Sequence record: AP012533
Length of the DNA: 62,274 bases
Origin: Stx2-converting phage Stx2a_F723
Reading direction: 5' to 3' (one strand)
The notes beneath the pieces were generated by a model. The model saw only the letters and a program-made list of their open reading frames with translations. It did no database searches and was not told the DNA's origin. Below, in pieces: positions 2,251 to 20,496 of the stretch. The position numbers and the translations under genes were made by a program. Positions within the stretch are counted from its first letter, which is position 1; each line of letters opens with the position of its first letter.

Positions 2251-2836
2251 TGGTTTTCTCCAGAAATTTAACAATACCCGGAACCATCTCAATGGATGGT
2301 GTTCCGCATTGGTTACCCCAGACATCAAATCCATGCGAGGTGTGACGGGCGAACAGTTCTATCCGGGGAACATCGCCAAGAAGTTGCACAAGTTTTTCTC
2401 GCGCCATATCCGGCTTGCGGGAGTGATCAAGGCGCGGTGCAGTGAATGACTGGATTATTCCGGCGTTAATGCGTTCAGGCAGATTTCCTTTCACTGCAAA
2501 AAGGCAGTCTTCGCTGTTAGCGCGAGTGGTGCTACCCATACCCATGACCAGCTTGTCGGTCTGTCTTTTCCCGCATTTGTTCCAGGTTAATCCTTTCATC
2601 GTCACCAGACGAAAGCCCCACGCTTCTACAACCTTCAATGCTTCAAGTGGTTGTGTAGGCACCCACCACATAGCCAACAGGCAATTATCGGCTGCCAGTT
2701 CCCATACCGGGAGGCGGCAGATATCCAGAAGACTCATGACCGGATATTTAAAACTTGCACCGCGTTGACCATCGGTTGCTTTGTCTCGGAATGTCCAGGG
2801 GGGATCTGCGTAAATGAGAGTGTATTTTTTCGTCAT
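2210..2836 (-). CDS. MT-A70 family DNA adenine methyltransferase
   Basis: 208-aa ORF with catalytic DPPW motif (IYADPPWTF) characteristic of MT-A70 N6-adenine methyltransferases. Confidence 0.8.
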   Translation of the reverse strand: MTKKYTLIYADPPWTFRDKATDGQRGASFKYPVMSLLDICRLPVWELAADNCLLAMWWVPTQPLEALKVVEAWGFRLVTMKGLTWNKCGKRQTDKLVMGMGSTTRANSEDCLFAVKGNLPERINAGIIQSFTAPRLDHSRKPDMAREKLVQLLGDVPRIELFARHTSHGFDVWGNQCGTPSIEMVPGIVKFLEKTNERKNDVDKGITS

Positions 2837-3063
2837 AGCGCGTTTTCAAACTCATCAATGTAAAGTGCAACAAGTGCAACGCATCGTCTGAAATCGGCTG
2901 CGTCATGTGGAGCACCGAAGCTATGACCATAGATATTCTTTTTCAGTCCACATGCGATTGAGGCAAGAGTTGCGCTACTGATGCCAACATAGTCAGTCGA
3001 TTGCCATTTCAAAACCTTCATAGCCAAATCTGACATTTCTTGTCTCCAATAAAAAACCGCCAT
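2833..3063 (-). CDS. Hypothetical protein
   Basis: 76-aa ORF whose stop overlaps the methylase start (ATGA-type coupling). Confidence 0.45.
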   Translation of the reverse strand: MAVFYWRQEMSDLAMKVLKWQSTDYVGISSATLASIACGLKKNIYGHSFGAPHDAADFRRCVALVALYIDEFENAL

Positions 3064-3230
3064 CAGGCGGCTTGGTGTTCTTTCAGTTCTTCAATTCGAA
3101 TATTGGTTACTTCTGCATGTGCTATCTGCGCCCATATCATCCAGTGGTCATAGCAGTCATTGATATTCTCCGCTTCGATAACTCTGTTGAATGGTTCTCC
3201 ATTCCATTCACCTGTGAATTTGAATTTCAT
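3063..3230 (-). CDS. Hypothetical small protein (55 aa)
   Basis: Hand-translated MKFKFTGEWNGEPFNRVIEAENINDCYDHWMIWAQIAHAEVTNIRIEELKEHQAA; SD AGGTGA upstream; stop overlaps start of next gene; below ORF-track size cutoff. Confidence 0.35.
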   Translation of the reverse strand: MKFKFTGEWNGEPFNRVIEAENINDCYDHWMIWAQIAHAEVTNIRIEELKEHQAA

Positions 3231-3244
3231 TAAGTTTCACCTGT

Positions 3245-3266
3245 AAAAAAAGGAGCCGAAGCTCCT
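3245..3266 (-). terminator. Rho-independent terminator downstream of antA-like gene
   Basis: GGAGC-CGAA-GCTCC hairpin followed by T-tract on minus strand. Confidence 0.55.
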
Positions 3267-3272
3267 TTGATA

Positions 3273-3896
3273 TTAAAATTCGAATTGTCTCGCCCGAAGG
3301 CTTTTTAACATTGGTCTTGCCCGTTCGAAAATGGCGCTTGTCTGGTCAATTCGTGTTGCCTCCCTGAGCAATGCGTCTCTGTTTTTCGTCACCGTGTAGA
3401 AAGTCTCAAACGCGATGTCATACAGCTTGCTCGCGTATGATGAGTTCAGTTCCTTCAATATCGGATACAGGCGTTTGCTGATGTCCTGTGCTTTCTCCAT
3501 CTGTACCTGCATGTAGCAGAGGAGGATGATTTCCTCGTCTGTGAATTGCTGTGCTGGTTGCATGCTGCGAAGTTTCTTTTCGCACTCGATGAAGTATCGG
3601 CGTATCTGGCGGCCTTTTTCGTTACGCTCAACCATCGCCAGTTCTTTGGCTGTGTCGAGAGTTAGGTGGTAGTCCTTGCTACGGCGATCACCTCCTCGCC
3701 CTTTGGTTTGCCCATTTTGGCAAATCAAAATATAGTCCTGGCTTTCAACGAATCCATATTCAGCAATGCGTTCTTTAACCCAGTGCGCGAACATTCTGCC
3801 CACACCAAGAAAAGAGTGTAGATCACGAGCGTTAACTAGAAGAATTGTTTCGTTGTCGATAGTGCCGTTGAATACGGGGATGAGTTGACTGGTCAT
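3273..3896 (-). CDS. AntA/Bro-N family antirepressor-like protein
   Basis: Start at ATG 3896 with AGGAGG SD (MTSQLIPVFNGT...); N-terminal AntA-like region and C-terminal KilAC-like region recognised by similarity. Confidence 0.65.
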   Translation of the reverse strand: MTSQLIPVFNGTIDNETILLVNARDLHSFLGVGRMFAHWVKERIAEYGFVESQDYILICQNGQTKGRGGDRRSKDYHLTLDTAKELAMVERNEKGRQIRRYFIECEKKLRSMQPAQQFTDEEIILLCYMQVQMEKAQDISKRLYPILKELNSSYASKLYDIAFETFYTVTKNRDALLREATRIDQTSAIFERARPMLKSLRARQFEF

Positions 3897-18380: not shown

Positions 18381-18596
18381 ATGAGTACGATAGCTGAGCT
18401 TGTCAGGGCTAATTTTCGTGAAGAGTTGGTGCGTTGGTATCGGTATCGTTCATCGTCCAGTTTGCCGCTTGATGAGTTGTATGAGCATTCACCTGCCGCA
18501 CGACGCTATCCGCGTGACCGTGTTCTTCGACGGTTGTTCAGACTCAATAATGAGTTTCAGCGCAACAGAATTATCCGGAGTCTGGATTTAAAGTGA
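18381..18596 (+). CDS. Hypothetical nin-region protein
   Basis: 71-aa ORF preceded by GAGGAGG SD. Confidence 0.5.
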   Translation: MSTIAELVRANFREELVRWYRYRSSSSLPLDELYEHSPAARRYPRDRVLRRLFRLNNEFQRNRIIRSLDLK

Positions 18597-18600
18597 AGGA

Positions 18601-18789
18601 GTGAGCATGAGCGAGCAAATATTCAGAGAGATTAAGCCACGGTTTTATCGCAAGGTAAGGGTGGTTTATCAGGACGAAAACAAGACATGTGCATACGCCA
18701 TTCATAATGGTCGGTGGTCAGTGTTCGACACCAAAAACTTCGAGAAGAACTTCGAGAGGATTAAGGGTGATGAGGAAACTAACATTTGA
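18601..18789 (+). CDS. Hypothetical small protein
   Basis: 62-aa ORF; 3' end overlaps ninB start. Confidence 0.35.
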   Translation: MSMSEQIFREIKPRFYRKVRVVYQDENKTCAYAIHNGRWSVFDTKNFEKNFERIKGDEETNI

Positions 18790-19186
18790 ACTAAGAAGCC
18801 CCATCCATCAGCAGAACGCCATTCAAGCTATCCAGCAAATTCTTCCAGACCCAACCAAACCAATCGTAGTAACCATTCAGGAACGCAACCGCAGCATTCG
18901 GCAAAATGCACGCCTTCACGCGATGCTATCTGAAATAAGTAAGAAGGCTACATATCACGGAAAAGCAAGAAATATTGAGTTTTGGAAGGGGTTATTCGTT
19001 TCTGGTTGGCAGATTGCAACCAACCAGCACCCTGAGATTATATCAGGGTTAGAAGGTGAGCTAATAAACATCAGAGAGAGTACGGCGACTCTATCTGTAA
19101 AAAAAATATCCGAAATAATGGACTACATAGAAGCATATTGTGCCATGAACTCAATTCATCTTAGCGAATGGAGGAATTATGATTGA
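18770..19186 (+). CDS. ninB: NinB recombination protein with altered C-terminus
   Basis: ATG at 18770 gives MRKLTFELRSPIHQQNAIQAIQQILPDPTKPIVVTIQERNRS...; ends ...SEWRNYD instead of the lambda-type ...KARWGDRAA. Confidence 0.8.
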   Translation: MRKLTFELRSPIHQQNAIQAIQQILPDPTKPIVVTIQERNRSIRQNARLHAMLSEISKKATYHGKARNIEFWKGLFVSGWQIATNQHPEIISGLEGELINIRESTATLSVKKISEIMDYIEAYCAMNSIHLSEWRNYD

Positions 19187-19781
19187 GGTTTGGGTAGATA
19201 TCGAAGGGATTCCATTTTATCAGGTTAGCAATAAAGGAAATTTCAGGTCTATTACGAGGGAAGTTACAGTAACATCAACCAGACAGAGGCCATATAAGAA
19301 AATAATTAATGGCACTAGTGTAAAACCATTCAAGTGCAAGTCGACAGGATATCTTCAAATAAAGGTATACGGTAAGAAATACAGCGCCCACAGGATAGTT
19401 GCGAAAGCATTCTGTACAGGGTTCTGTGATGGCTTGGTAGTTAATCACAAAAATGGGCGAAGAGATGACAATAGGGCTGATAACCTTGAATGGGTATCAC
19501 ATTCTGAAAACTCAAAACACGGATATAAACAAAATGGAAGAATACCTATATCGCTAGGTAAATTTAGTGGTGACCATCCTGCCAGTAAAGCTGTTATTTC
19601 TACTGACATGAAAACTGGGGAGGAGGTTTATTATGAAGCAGCTATGGATGCTGTCAGAGAAGGATTTGATAGTTCGTCAATTAGTCGTTGCTGTAATGGC
19701 GAAAGCTCATATCACAAAGGAAGATTCTGGCGATTTGCAAATGAAAAAATGAAAGCGCGATGGGGAGATCGGGCTGCATGA
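19179..19781 (+). CDS. HNH homing endonuclease carrying the original ninB C-terminal codons
   Basis: 200-aa ORF with HNH motif (VVNHKNGRRDDNRADNLEWVSHSEN); last residues KARWGDRAA match the lambda NinB C-terminus. Confidence 0.75.
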   Translation: MIEVWVDIEGIPFYQVSNKGNFRSITREVTVTSTRQRPYKKIINGTSVKPFKCKSTGYLQIKVYGKKYSAHRIVAKAFCTGFCDGLVVNHKNGRRDDNRADNLEWVSHSENSKHGYKQNGRIPISLGKFSGDHPASKAVISTDMKTGEEVYYEAAMDAVREGFDSSSISRCCNGESSYHKGRFWRFANEKMKARWGDRAA

Positions 19782-20305
19782 CTATCAAATCAAATACGCC
19801 AGCACACAACAAGGACTGCTGGCAAACGCCGCTTTGGCTTTTTGATGCACTGGATATTGAGTTTGGATTCTGGCTGGATTCAGCTGCGAGCGACAAAAAT
19901 GCTCTGTGCGCTCACTGGCTAACTGAGGTCGACGACGCGCTCAATTCTGAGTGGGTAAGCCACGGTGCAATCTGGAATAACCCACCGTACAGCAATATCA
20001 GGCCGTGGGTGGAAAAAGCCGCTGAGCAGTGCATACAACAGCGACAGACGGTAGTTATGCTTGTGCCAGAGGATATGTCAGTCGGATGGTTCAGCAAGGC
20101 TCTGGAGAGTGTTGACGAAGTTCGCATTATCACTGATGGACGGATTAATTTTATCGAACCATCGACGGGGCTGGAGAAGAAGGGAAACAGTAAAGGCTCC
20201 ATGCTGCTGATTTGGCGACCGTTCATCAGTCCTCGACGGATGTTTACTACCGTATCCAAAGCGGCATTGATGGCGATCGGGCAGGGCGTCAGGAGGGCGG
20301 CATGA
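19778..20305 (+). CDS. Phage Dam-like N6-adenine DNA methyltransferase
   Basis: ATG at 19778 ([18 protein letters not shown]...); NPPY catalytic motif ([12 protein letters not shown]); start overlaps the HNH stop. Confidence 0.75.
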
Positions 20306-20496
20306 GGCGACAGCGACGAAGTATCACCGACATCATCTGCGAAAACTGCAAATACCTTCCAACGAAACGCTCCAGAAATAAACGCAAGCCAATCCCAAAA
20401 GAATCTGACGTAAAAACCTTCAATTACACGGCTCACCTGTGGGATATCCGGTGGCTAAGACATCGTGCGAGGAATACAAGGGGATTGACGCGATGA
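20302..20496 (+). CDS. ninE: NinE
   Basis: ATG at 20302 gives [52 protein letters not shown]..., matching lambda NinE. Confidence 0.8.

What the first reader, a model, noticed from the sequence alone, without database searches (positions are those of the whole stretch)
18770..19781. HNH endonuclease gene inserted into the 3' end of ninB
The NinB homologue ends with a novel tail (...IHLSEWRNYD) at 19186. The HNH endonuclease ORF starting at 19179 ends with KARWGDRAA, which I recognise as the C-terminus of lambda-type NinB, and keeps the ATGA stop-start overlap with the next gene. This is the footprint of a free-standing homing endonuclease inserted a few codons before the ninB stop, capturing the original 3' end and translational coupling signal.
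Basis: partly seen in the sequence, partly recalled or inferred. Interest (0 to 1): 0.5.

Follow-up and report, generated by a model that had tools for sequence, protein, structure and literature searches.

The report
Mobile HNH nuclease cassette replacing ninB
In this Shiga-toxin phage, a selfish-type HNH nuclease gene and the foreign piece of the recombination gene ninB that always travels with it have replaced the middle of the resident ninB, and the last nine ninB codons now form the tail of the nuclease; it is a tidy example of a known kind of mobile gene, not a new mechanism.

Summary
ninB (18770-19186) ends ...IHLSEWRNYD. The HNH ORF (19179-19781) ends KARWGDRAA, which is the C-terminus of lambda-type NinB, and its stop overlaps the dam start in ATGA.

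An HNH-less "empty-site" allele from an E. coli prophage matches the window at 123/126 nt up to 18895 and at 544/555 nt from 19751. Between those points, 284 nt of lambda-type ninB (codons 43-137) are replaced by 855 nt. The replacement carries a heterologous "type-2" ninB segment with its own stop, plus an I-HmuI-like HNH gene with no stop of its own.

- **Linkage:** in 77 E. coli genomes and 62 phage records the type-2 segment never occurs without the HNH.
- **Mobility:** the same cassette sits in front of four different downstream genes and behind three different ninB 5' ends.
- **Family pattern:** across Proteobacteria most listed members of this HNH clade end in frame in a ninB 3' relic of variable length. 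Of the contexts examined, all but one have ninB immediately upstream.

The best reading is a free-standing homing-type endonuclease that spreads with a linked ninB segment. Nuclease activity and homing were not tested. It is a new member of a known kind, of moderate interest.

The parts
18770..19186 (+). Chimeric ninB/orf gene (138 aa), which has its own stop codon.
   Evidence: ORF list and sequence. Pfam NinB E=2.5e-40 covering profile positions 2-129 of 131. It aligns to lambda Orf (PDB 1PC6) at residues 1-130 against 1-126, so it lacks an equivalent of lambda residues 131-146, the C-terminal helix.
18770..18895 (+). Lambda-type 5' segment of ninB (codons 1-42). This is the resident sequence and forms the left homology arm.
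   Evidence: 123/126 nt identical to the HNH-less allele of E. coli WP3-W18-ESBL-08. About 90% identical to lambda and Sf101, with 18840-18895 identical. Thousands of megablast matches in E. coli genomes end at exactly this position.
18881..18895 (+). Left junction zone, GAACGCAACCGCAGC (E-R-N-R-S).
   Evidence: This is the last stretch shared with lambda-type alleles. It is also the first stretch shared with cassette copies that carry an unrelated ninB 5' end (L007, L008).
18896..19750 (+). The 855-nt cassette: a heterologous 'type-2' ninB segment plus an HNH gene that has no stop codon of its own.
   Evidence: It replaces 284 nt of the empty-site allele. Copies in E. coli prophages with different flanks are 98-100% identical. 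It never occurs as the ninB part alone: 77 of 77 E. coli genomes and 62 of 62 close phage records carry both parts.
18896..19186 (+). Type-2 ninB segment (codons 43-138 plus stop), carrying the motif EFWKGLFVSGWQIAT..PEI..GLEGE.INIREST.
   Evidence: No nucleotide similarity to lambda-type ninB. It is 85% identical in protein to Salmonella phage SEN22 NinB, and about 25% identical to P22- and HK022-type NinB. The subfamily was defined from homologues.
19170..19174 (+). GGAGG Shine-Dalgarno sequence for the HNH gene, lying inside ninB codons W134-R135.
   Evidence: Read directly from the sequence. A purine-rich GGAG-type site lies in the same position in diverged relatives.
19179..19751 (+). Native part of the HNH endonuclease ORF (residues 1-191), with the architecture NUMOD4 / HNH_3 / I-HmuI-like NUMOD.
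   Evidence: Pfam hits. phmmer to I-HmuI (1U3E) gives E=3.7e-14, residues 55-186 against 36-170 of 174, so the native end lies near residue 190. SEN22 homology stops at residue 191. Against SEN22, pN is 0.13 and pS is 0.81.
19752..19781 (+). Relic of the displaced lambda-type ninB 3' end ([13 protein letters not shown]), read in frame as the tail of the HNH protein.
   Evidence: Nearly identical in nucleotides to the 3' end of HNH-less ninB in L159, Sf101 and lambda. Polymorphisms in this relic co-vary with the downstream gene among cassette copies.
19778..19781 (+). ATGA stop/start overlap between HNH (formerly ninB) and dam.
   Evidence: Read from the sequence. The same overlap joins ninB and dam in Sf101 and L159.
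19778..20305 (+). Dam-family N6-adenine methyltransferase gene. This is resident sequence and forms the right homology arm.
   Evidence: Pfam Dam E=1.7e-64. The stretch 19751-20305 is 544/555 identical to the empty-site allele.

Best explanation
The ORF at 19179-19781 is a free-standing, I-HmuI-like HNH endonuclease gene of the homing type, lodged at the 3' end of the recombination-mediator gene ninB.

**Structure.** The gene is part of an 855-nt mobile cassette (18896-19750). The cassette also carries a heterologous type-2 ninB segment, codons 43-138 with its own stop. It has replaced codons 43-137 of a resident lambda-type ninB. What remains of the resident gene is codons 1-42, now fused to the incoming ninB segment, and the last nine codons plus the stop. 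The HNH ORF has no stop of its own. It reads in frame through that relic and terminates in the original ATGA, so translation still runs up to the dam start.

**Proposed spread.** When an HNH-carrying phage or prophage meets an HNH-less lambdoid genome, the nuclease cuts or nicks the lambda-type ninB allele. Repair by Red or RecA then uses the 126-nt left arm and the right arm (about 30 nt of relic plus whatever lies downstream) to copy in the cassette. The linked type-2 ninB segment is co-converted and presumably lacks the cleavage site, which would give self-immunity while keeping a working NinB core.

**Shown here:** the anatomy, both junctions, the empty-site allele, family membership by sequence, strict linkage of the two halves of the cassette, the same cassette in several flanking contexts, and purifying selection.

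**Inferred:** nuclease activity, a target inside ninB, nuclease-driven homing, and immunity of the type-2 segment.
For: **Family.** Pfam matches NUMOD4 and HNH_3. The closest solved structure is the homing endonuclease I-HmuI at E=3.7e-14. Putative catalytic residues H90, N102 and N111 are invariant in 29 homologues.

**Empty site.** L159 matches at 123/126 nt on the left and 544/555 nt on the right. Between them, 284 nt there correspond to 855 nt in the window.

**Presence/absence polymorphism.**
- The cassette is in 77 of 5,426 complete E. coli genomes.
- The lambda-type segment it replaces is in 1,307 genomes.

**Linkage.** The type-2 ninB part never occurs without the HNH, in 77 of 77 genomes and in all 62 close phage records plus SEN22.

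**Different contexts, same end points.** Cassette copies 98-100% identical lie upstream of dam, ninD, ninE and ninC (PAPS reductase). They lie behind lambda-like, window-type or unrelated ninB 5' ends. Polymorphisms in the 30-nt relic follow the downstream module; for example L019 equals lambda exactly.

**Depth of the association.**
- NinBs 56-89% identical to the window's are all followed by an HNH in IMG/VR and in contigs from Yersinia, a Pantoea MAG, an Acinetobacter MAG and a metagenome.
- NinB and HNH identities fall in the same rank order: 85/78, 71/66, 67/64 and 60/54%.
- In a species-level genome scan, only HNHs at least 51% identical to this one have NinB upstream (4 of 4, against 0 of 76).

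**Relics throughout the clade.** HNH homologues end in ninB 3' relics of different lengths and subtypes. Examples are SDASRLEIEWATRWGKS, AHAFGTQRGVEWSPTSLGRAA, GTEHGVKWADEAKAA and ...EQWEAAA. In L078 the relic duplicates the end of the NinB standing upstream.

**Selection.** pN/pS is 0.13/0.81 for HNH and 0.075/0.71 for ninB against SEN22.

**A hot spot.** A second HNH architecture (HNH_3 plus AP2-like) occupies the same site in L010, L011, L050 and L052. Another sits in the ninB 5' end of L008, fused to ninB codons 1-32.
Against: - No cleavage or homing experiment exists, and the target site is unknown.
- Lambdoid phages are strongly mosaic. Red recombination works with about 30-50 nt of homology (my own knowledge, not tested here). 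The same cassette in several contexts could therefore arise by ordinary recombination without any nuclease drive.
- Strong, long-lasting purifying selection and co-divergence with ninB would also fit a domesticated nuclease.
- The right junction is not at one fixed position across the whole HNH clade; relic length runs from 2 to about 22 residues. That is not what a strictly site-specific insertion gives. It may reflect later in-frame deletions, independent events, or both.
- In a P. aeruginosa prophage (L157) the HNH carries a NinB-like tail but no NinB gene lies upstream.
- I-HmuI is a nicking enzyme that acts on both intron-plus and intron-minus DNA (my own knowledge). Self-immunity of the linked allele is therefore an assumption.
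Confidence: 0.67

Rival explanations
1. One reading: the HNH gene alone was inserted a few codons before the stop of the resident ninB. The upstream ninB would then be the same gene with a new tail created by the insertion.
For: The last nine codons and the ATGA are the lambda-type ninB end. The residues R-N-Y-D are encoded by the HNH gene's own SD and start region.
Against: ninB codons 43-134 have no nucleotide similarity to the allele that supplies both flanks, and are about 25% identical in protein to P22/HK022-type NinB, which is near-identical to lambda's. Relative to the empty site, 284 nt are missing. A simple insertion cannot remove codons 43-137.
Confidence: 0.05
2. Ordinary lambdoid mosaicism. 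The type-2 ninB plus HNH module is a passively carried 'moron' block. It was shuffled between phages by general or Red-mediated recombination at short conserved sequences, namely the ERNRS codons and the ninB 3' end. The nuclease would play no part in its spread.
For: Both junctions lie in sequences conserved among ninB alleles. The nin region is visibly mosaic in all loci compared, and the downstream genes differ. The cassette is rare, at about 5% of lambda-flanked ninB loci in E. coli.
Against: The close HNH clade (at least 51% identical) is tied to ninB 3' ends across distant hosts, while more distant HNHs are not. Two unrelated HNH architectures occupy the same site, and a third invades the ninB 5' end. 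This focus on one small gene is what targeting predicts and is not expected from random shuffling.
Confidence: 0.17
3. A domesticated partner nuclease. The HNH protein would work together with the type-2 NinB in phage recombination or replication restart. The NinB-derived tail could serve as a contact to NinB or to DNA. The pair would then be kept because it benefits the phage.
For: The pairing is long-lived and the two genes co-diverge. Purifying selection is strong. NinB/Orf domains are fused to HNH nuclease domains in Gram-positive phages (PMC4118853, PMC2034487). The lambda Orf C-terminal helix contributes to DNA binding (PMC4118853). Tails keep recognisable motifs within subclades, such as WIGY, GFLD and HGVxWS.
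Against: Tails evolve faster than the HNH body (identities 0.43 against 0.78, 0.38 against 0.62, 0.30 against 0.49). They shrink to as few as 2 residues. Decayed copies exist: an IS insertion, frameshifts and a truncation. Most lambda-type ninB phages do without the HNH. The HNH here is of the I-HmuI type and not of the DUF968 type.
Confidence: 0.1
4. The HNH ORF lies in a self-splicing intron or an intein, and RNA or protein splicing restores a full-length NinB.
For: I-HmuI itself is intron-encoded (my own knowledge). The NinB relic is in frame with the HNH ORF.
Against: A permissive Rfam scan of 18500-20100 finds no intron or ribozyme. The ORF fills the whole insert, which leaves no room for a ribozyme core. 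ninB ends in a stop codon in a different frame from the HNH, so no single polypeptide spans both. The upstream ninB segment is heterologous to the relic.
Confidence: 0.01

Closest known systems
I-HmuI and its relatives (I-HmuII, I-BasI, I-TwoI): HNH homing endonucleases of Bacillus and Staphylococcus phages (PDB 1U3E)
   Same: The domain order is the same: an N-terminal NUMOD4-type DNA-binding module, an HNH_3 catalytic core and a C-terminal NUMOD/HTH module. Sequence similarity is significant at E=3.7e-14 over residues 55-186.
   Different: Those enzymes are encoded inside group I introns of DNA polymerase genes. This one is free-standing, with no intron. It sits in ninB of lambdoid phages of Proteobacteria and carries a 9-residue tail derived from its target gene.
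Free-standing homing endonucleases of T-even phages and 'intronless homing' (SegF, SegG, MobE; reviewed in PMC2988022, PMC2790892)
   Same: The endonuclease gene lies between or within genes and not in an intron. It is present or absent among otherwise homologous phages. It moves together with adjacent sequence that replaces the recipient's non-identical allele, which is localized marker exclusion or co-conversion.
   Different: Here the co-travelling sequence is two thirds of the target gene itself, from a different subfamily. The nuclease ORF has lost its own stop and ends in a relic of the displaced gene. Homing has not been tested.
mobE insertion in nrdA of Aeromonas phage Aeh1, the 'genes in pieces' ribonucleotide reductase (PMC3045599)
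   Same: A free-standing HNH gene is lodged inside a phage gene of DNA metabolism. The host function is retained despite the interruption. Sequence at the junctions is re-used.
   Different: In Aeh1 both gene halves are expressed and reassemble. Here the upstream ninB is made whole by the imported segment, and the downstream piece is a short relic appended to the nuclease.
NinB/Orf-HNH fusion proteins (DUF968) of Gram-positive phages (PMC4118853, PMC2034487)
   Same: A NinB/Orf DNA-binding module is associated with an HNH nuclease in a phage recombination region.
   Different: Those are single polypeptides with a zinc-finger HNH at the C-terminus of Orf. Here there are two ORFs in different frames, with an I-HmuI-type HNH. 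Only 9 NinB residues are fused, and they sit at the C-terminus of the nuclease.
Nuclease genes at boundaries of genetic exchange between phages (ICP1 phages, PMC10448857)
   Same: The HEG marks the edge of a recombination tract between related phages.
   Different: A different phage group and different nuclease families. I did not read that paper beyond its abstract.

Membership tests
I-HmuI-like HNH homing endonucleases | HNH_3 catalytic core with conserved His/Asn residues | tested here: met
   PF13392 E=2.4e-11, 43.5 bits against a cut-off of 24.8. H90, N102 and N111 are invariant in 29 homologues. The region aligns to the I-HmuI core.
I-HmuI-like HNH homing endonucleases | N-terminal NUMOD4 DNA-binding module | tested here: met
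   PF07463 E=1.4e-13, 51.3 bits against a cut-off of 23.4.
I-HmuI-like HNH homing endonucleases | C-terminal NUMOD/helix-turn-helix module | tested here: inconclusive
   PF22083 scores 19.2 bits, below the 27-bit cut-off. However, the phmmer alignment to 1U3E runs through this region to residue 186.
I-HmuI-like HNH homing endonucleases | Encoded within a group I intron | tested here: not met
   No Rfam match at E up to 10. The ORF fills the insert, so the gene is free-standing.
I-HmuI-like HNH homing endonucleases | Site-specific nicking or cleavage of the cognate allele | not testable with these tools
   This needs purified protein and ninB substrates.
Free-standing homing endonuclease genes (intronless homing) | Presence/absence polymorphism at a defined site between otherwise homologous genomes | tested here: met
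   The empty-site allele L159 matches at 123/126 and 544/555 nt in the flanks. The cassette is in 77 E. coli genomes and the replaced segment in 1,307.
Free-standing homing endonuclease genes (intronless homing) | Co-transfer of adjacent donor sequence that replaces the recipient allele | tested here: met
   The type-2 ninB segment is always linked to the HNH. The whole cassette occurs in at least 4 downstream and 3 upstream contexts with the same end points. This is comparative evidence only.
Free-standing homing endonuclease genes (intronless homing) | Super-Mendelian inheritance that depends on the nuclease | not testable with these tools
   This needs phage crosses.
NinB/Orf recombination mediators (PF05772) | Complete NinB core domain | tested here: met
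   E=2.5e-40, profile positions 2-129 of 131. Aligns to lambda Orf residues 1-126.
NinB/Orf recombination mediators (PF05772) | C-terminal helix of lambda Orf (residues about 131-146, including W137) | tested here: not met
   The ORF stops at a position equivalent to about lambda residue 134, and its last four residues come from the HNH leader. Residues 138-146 are attached to the HNH instead. HNH-less type-2 relatives also have short tails, for example ...LSAPEDAWA.
NinB-HNH fusion proteins (DUF968) | A single polypeptide with an N-terminal Orf domain and a C-terminal HNH | tested here: not met
   There are two ORFs in different frames, separated by a stop. Pfam gives no DUF968 hit.
Inteins / group I or II introns | An in-frame intein, or ribozyme structure flanking the ORF | tested here: not met
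   ninB has a stop codon and the HNH is in a different frame. No Rfam hit.

The most novel reading that the evidence does not exclude
The nuclease and the NinB it travels with could form a functional pair. The NinB-derived C-terminal tail on the HNH protein, a piece of the Orf C-terminal helix, would tether the nuclease to the tail-less type-2 NinB ring or to the same DNA. The break made by the nuclease would then be handed directly to a recombination mediator that loads RecA or Red-beta. That would be a homing endonuclease that carries its own repair-channelling factor. It would also explain why this HNH clade is associated with ninB wherever a NinB-bearing context was examined, and why the relic stays in frame and keeps subclade-specific motifs.
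Probability: 0.1. Interest if true: 0.7.

Novelty: new member of a known kind. Interest (0 to 1): 0.4.

Why it matters
- **Stx-phage genomics.** The cassette explains a recurrent annotation oddity in many Stx2a-converting phages and EHEC prophages. There, a short NinB and a 'NUMOD4 domain protein' ending in a NinB tail are one mobile cassette and not two unrelated genes.
- **A marker for recombination.** The cassette gives a sharply defined, easily scored marker, present or absent with known end points, for tracing recombination among lambdoid and Stx prophages.
- **A testable homing system.** It points to a clade of nucleases that appears specialised on the ninB gene across Proteobacteria. 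This would be a convenient, genetically tractable system in lambda for studying intronless homing, co-conversion and how a selfish gene limits damage. Here it does so by importing a replacement for the gene it disrupts and by reading through the relic, so that translation still reaches the start of the next gene.

It does not reveal a new mechanism.

Tried and rejected
1. **VT2-Sakai/933W-type phages as the empty site.** Rejected. They carry a different module at this position, a Lar-like gene plus another NinB subtype, so the alignment is uninformative between 18590 and 19760.
2. **Intron or ribozyme.** A permissive Rfam scan gave only two chance-level hits to eukaryotic RNA families.
3. **An HNH-less copy of the type-2 ninB segment.** None was found at megablast level in phages or in E. 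coli genomes. HNH-less type-2-like NinBs exist only at 55% identity or less.
4. **dN/dS.** Synonymous sites are saturated for all pairs except ninB against SEN22, so only pN and pS are reported.
5. **The species-level genome scan with the HNH profile.** It returned mostly distant HNHs (at most 43% identical) in unrelated contexts. These served only as a negative control.
6. **Selection on the tail.** Whether the relic tail is under protein-level selection could not be settled. Tails are less conserved than the HNH body but not random.
7. **Structure prediction and fold search.** Not run. Sequence matches to 1U3E and 1PC6 already placed both proteins. The tools do not accept engineered sequences, so a NinB-plus-tail chimera could not be modelled.
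8. **Literature.** Full-text searches found no description of this ninB-HNH arrangement. They did find NinB-HNH domain fusions, and maps that mark 'HNH' boxes in nin regions. The library is incomplete, so this absence is weak evidence.
Full report
**What is in the window.** The window is a Stx-converting lambdoid phage. The stretch 18500-20400 is 100% identical to vB_EcoS_P27 and 99.7% identical to dozens of Stx2a prophages. Three genes lie in this stretch.
- ninB runs from 18770 to 19186. It encodes 138 aa, matches Pfam NinB at 2.5e-40, and ends ...IHLSEWRNYD.
- An ORF of 200 aa runs from 19179 to 19781. It has NUMOD4 (1.4e-13), HNH_3 (2.4e-11) and a weak I-HmuI NUMOD-like match, and ends ...[15 protein letters not shown].
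- A Dam-family methyltransferase gene runs from 19778 to 20305, and its ATG overlaps the HNH stop as ATGA.

Lambda, Sf101 and many prophage NinBs end ...[14 protein letters not shown].

**The empty site.** HNH-less relatives were used to define the break points. VT2-Sakai was not usable, because it has a different module at this position. Sf101 and lambda match the window from the ninB start to 18895 and again from about 19751.

The best comparator is a prophage of E. coli WP3-W18-ESBL-08 (locus L159).
- Its ninB encodes MRKLTFELRSPIHQQNAIQAIQQILPDPTKPIVVTIQERNRS|LDQNRKLW...[14 protein letters not shown].
- It is 123/126 nt identical to the window over 18770-18895.
- It is 544/555 nt identical over 19751-20305, which includes dam.
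- Between those arms it has 284 nt (codons 43-137), where the window has 855 nt (18896-19750).

In megablast against 5,426 complete E. coli genomes, the left-arm matches end at 18895 and the right-arm matches begin at about 19751 in the HNH-less genomes listed. The event is therefore a replacement and not a simple insertion.

**What the 855 nt contain.**

*The imported ninB segment.* The first 291 nt (18896-19186) encode NinB residues 43-138 plus a stop. This segment has no nucleotide similarity to lambda-type ninB and is about 25% identical in protein to P22/HK022-type NinB, near-identical to lambda's. It belongs to a distinct NinB subfamily, here called type-2, with the motif EFWKGLFVSGWQIAT..PEI.PGLEGEFINIREST. 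The chimeric protein still covers the whole Pfam NinB core. It aligns to lambda Orf (1PC6) residues 1-126. It lacks lambda's C-terminal helix (about 131-146), which contributes to DNA binding according to PMC4118853.

*The HNH ORF.* The remaining nucleotides are the HNH ORF up to residue 191.
- Its Shine-Dalgarno sequence (GGAGG, 19170-19174) and its ATG lie inside the last ninB codons. The ninB ending W-R-N-Y-D-stop is the reading of the HNH leader in the ninB frame.
- The closest solved structure is the homing endonuclease I-HmuI (1U3E, E=3.7e-14). The alignment reaches I-HmuI residue 170 of 174 at HNH residue 186, so the native protein should end near residue 190.
- Residues 192-200 plus the stop are the last 30 nt of the displaced lambda-type ninB.

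**The two halves of the cassette are always together.**
- In the phage collection, the type-2 segment occurs at 99% identity or more in 62 records, and at 85% in Salmonella phage SEN22. In every one of these examined it is next to the HNH. All other hits are below 60%.
- In complete E. coli genomes the cassette is in 77 genomes. All 77 hold both parts.
- The lambda-type segment it replaces is in 1,307 genomes.
- In IMG/VR, every NinB at least 56% identical to the window's is followed by an HNH. The apparent exceptions are decayed copies. NinBs of 55% identity or less lack it, with one exception.
- Contig look-ups gave the same picture for Yersinia kristensenii, MAG contigs assigned to Pantoea and Acinetobacter, and a metagenomic phage contig.
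- NinB and HNH identities to the window decline in parallel: 85/78, 71/66, 67/64 and 60/54%. Synonymous sites are saturated while pN stays low: HNH 0.13 against pS 0.81, and ninB 0.075 against 0.71, both against SEN22. The pair is therefore old and both genes are under purifying selection.

**Evidence for mobility.** Cassette copies 98-100% identical were aligned from E. coli prophages with different neighbours.
- Downstream of the relic lie dam (the window, L020), ninD (L017), ninE (L018, L008) or the ninC/PAPS-reductase gene (L019).
- Upstream, the ninB 5' part is lambda-like (L017, L019, L020), the window's variant, or unrelated (L007, L008).
- All copies share the same left limit, inside the ERNRS codons at 18881-18895. 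All share the same right limit, ...AATG|AAAGC at 19750/19751.
- The synonymous polymorphisms of the 30-nt relic follow the downstream module. L019's relic and downstream gene are identical to lambda's.
- SEN22, at 78% HNH identity, has a shorter relic (...ERMAA) in front of ninD.

The cassette has thus been placed into several resident lambda-type ninB genes. This is what homing with co-conversion predicts. It could also result from Red-type recombination using the 126-nt and roughly 30-nt arms.

**The wider family.** A protein search with HNH residues 1-191 found 148 relatives at E of 1e-20 or better. The 120 best, listed in the output, are 46-100% identical to the query. The named ones come from Enterobacterales, Pseudomonas, Aeromonas, Achromobacter and Camelimonas.

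After the conserved ...HKGxxWRF end, most members continue in frame into a sequence recognisable as a NinB C-terminus. The length and subtype vary:
- SDASRLEIEWATRWGKS
- AHAFGTQRGVEWSPTSLGRAA
- GTEHGVKWADEAKAA
- GDRHGVRWSDEARA
- ...ITEWIGYDETSNRSAA
- ...PEQWEAAA
- many ...RAA or ...AA endings

For comparison, lambda ends [29 protein letters not shown].

Further observations on the family:
- In Camelimonas (L078) the NinB upstream ends ...AAEKGVILRNGEENA and the HNH ends ...GARHGVVFHAQMEDA. This is a diverged duplicate of the same region, as expected if an incoming ninB-plus-HNH unit displaced a resident ninB and left its 3' end behind.
- In a one-genome-per-species scan, the four loci with an HNH at least 51% identical to this one all have NinB directly upstream. 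None of 76 more distant HNHs does.
- One P. aeruginosa prophage has the HNH with a NinB-like tail but no NinB upstream.
- Within subclades the tails are less conserved than the HNH body (0.43 against 0.78, 0.38 against 0.62, 0.30 against 0.49) and differ by in-frame indels. That fits a relic under weak constraint, kept open so that translation reaches the ATGA of the next gene. It does not exclude a role for the tail.

**ninB as a hot spot.** A different HNH architecture (HNH_3 plus an AP2-like domain, about 30% identical in the core) occupies the same position after type-2 NinB in L010, L011, L050 and L052. It ends in a long lambda-like relic...QAIDWARRFGETKRAA. In L008 and L009 a related AP2-type HNH sits at the other end of ninB. 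Its ORF begins with ninB codons 1-32 (MRKLTFELRSPIHQQNAIQAIQQILPDPTKPI) and is followed by a replacement ninB 5' part. This is a mirror image of the window's arrangement.

**Alternatives.**
- An intron or intein is excluded.
- Passive mosaicism and a domesticated partner nuclease cannot be excluded without experiments. I give them about 0.17 and 0.10.
- The literature searched knows NinB-HNH domain fusions in Gram-positive phages, and marks HNH boxes in nin-region maps (PMC4118853, PMC2034487). I found no description of this cassette or of the relic tails. The library is incomplete.
- The nearest precedents are intronless homing by free-standing T4 endonucleases (PMC2988022, PMC2790892) and the mobE-split nrdA of phage Aeh1 (PMC3045599).

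**Verdict.** The feature is a free-standing I-HmuI-like HNH gene that travels with a linked, heterologous ninB segment. It has replaced the middle of a lambda-type ninB, and the last nine ninB codons and the ATGA junction are re-used as the end of the nuclease ORF. The anatomy, the polymorphism and the family-wide association are shown. Nuclease activity, the target site and nuclease-driven spread are inferred. It is a new member of a known kind, of moderate interest (0.4).

Noticed in passing
L008 1912-2499 and L009 1912-2499 (E. coli prophage contigs); compare window 18770-18865: A second HNH gene (HNH_3 plus AP2-like, 195 aa) lies immediately upstream of ninB. It starts with the first 32 codons of the window-type ninB. 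A replacement ninB 5' part (MKCVKYHLTNESIRYNAIQYLRTCDLDIIVEFKQ) follows it. ninB in these prophages is therefore invaded from both ends.
   Followed up: partly
L010 2910-3458, L011 2910-3461, L050, L052: An HNH_3 plus AP2-like endonuclease, a different architecture from the window's, occupies the same position after type-2 NinB. In L010, L011 and L050 it ends in a long NinB-like relic (...QAIDWARRFGETKRAA in L010). The L052 copy ends ...KEAESKYWGQ with no obvious relic. This looks like nuclease turnover at one site.
   Followed up: partly
window 19099-19106: There is an A8 homopolymer inside ninB. IMG/VR copies L047 and L048 have A7 at this position, which frameshifts ninB (...SVKKYPK*). This may be a slippage-prone site or a sequencing artefact.
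   Followed up: partly
L028 about 2550-3750; equivalent to window 19315-19318 (CTAG): One IMG/VR copy has an insertion of about 1.2 kb in the HNH gene, truncating it at 56 aa. The insertion begins GGAAGGTGCGAACAAG. From memory this looks like an IS5-type end; it was not checked against a database.
   Followed up: partly
Proteins P0124-P0126 (E. coli); L079 1480-1872 (Mixta): Some HNH copies are decayed. The E. coli proteins are frameshifted near residue 150 and then run in the frame of window ORF 19633-19752. The Mixta copy is truncated after about 122 residues counted from its ATG.
   Followed up: no
L157 1501-2094 (P. aeruginosa CP084890 prophage): An HNH of this clade ends in a NinB-like tail (...TTRDYWEAA). 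The upstream gene is a 112-aa non-NinB protein, so the ninB appears to have been lost or replaced while the relic stayed.
   Followed up: no
window 18601-18789 and 18689-19186: A 62-aa ORF of unknown function overlaps the ninB start. A GTG at 18689 opens a 165-aa in-frame extension of ninB, which mechanical ORF calling and the collection's protein P0001 take as the start. The P27 annotation uses the ATG at 18770.
   Followed up: no
L006 3313-3594 (Salmonella phage SEN22); L016 2306-3043: Further HNH genes lie elsewhere in the nin regions of related phages: between ninF and rusA in SEN22, and two genes downstream of ninB in L016. This region seems generally rich in such nucleases.
   Followed up: no
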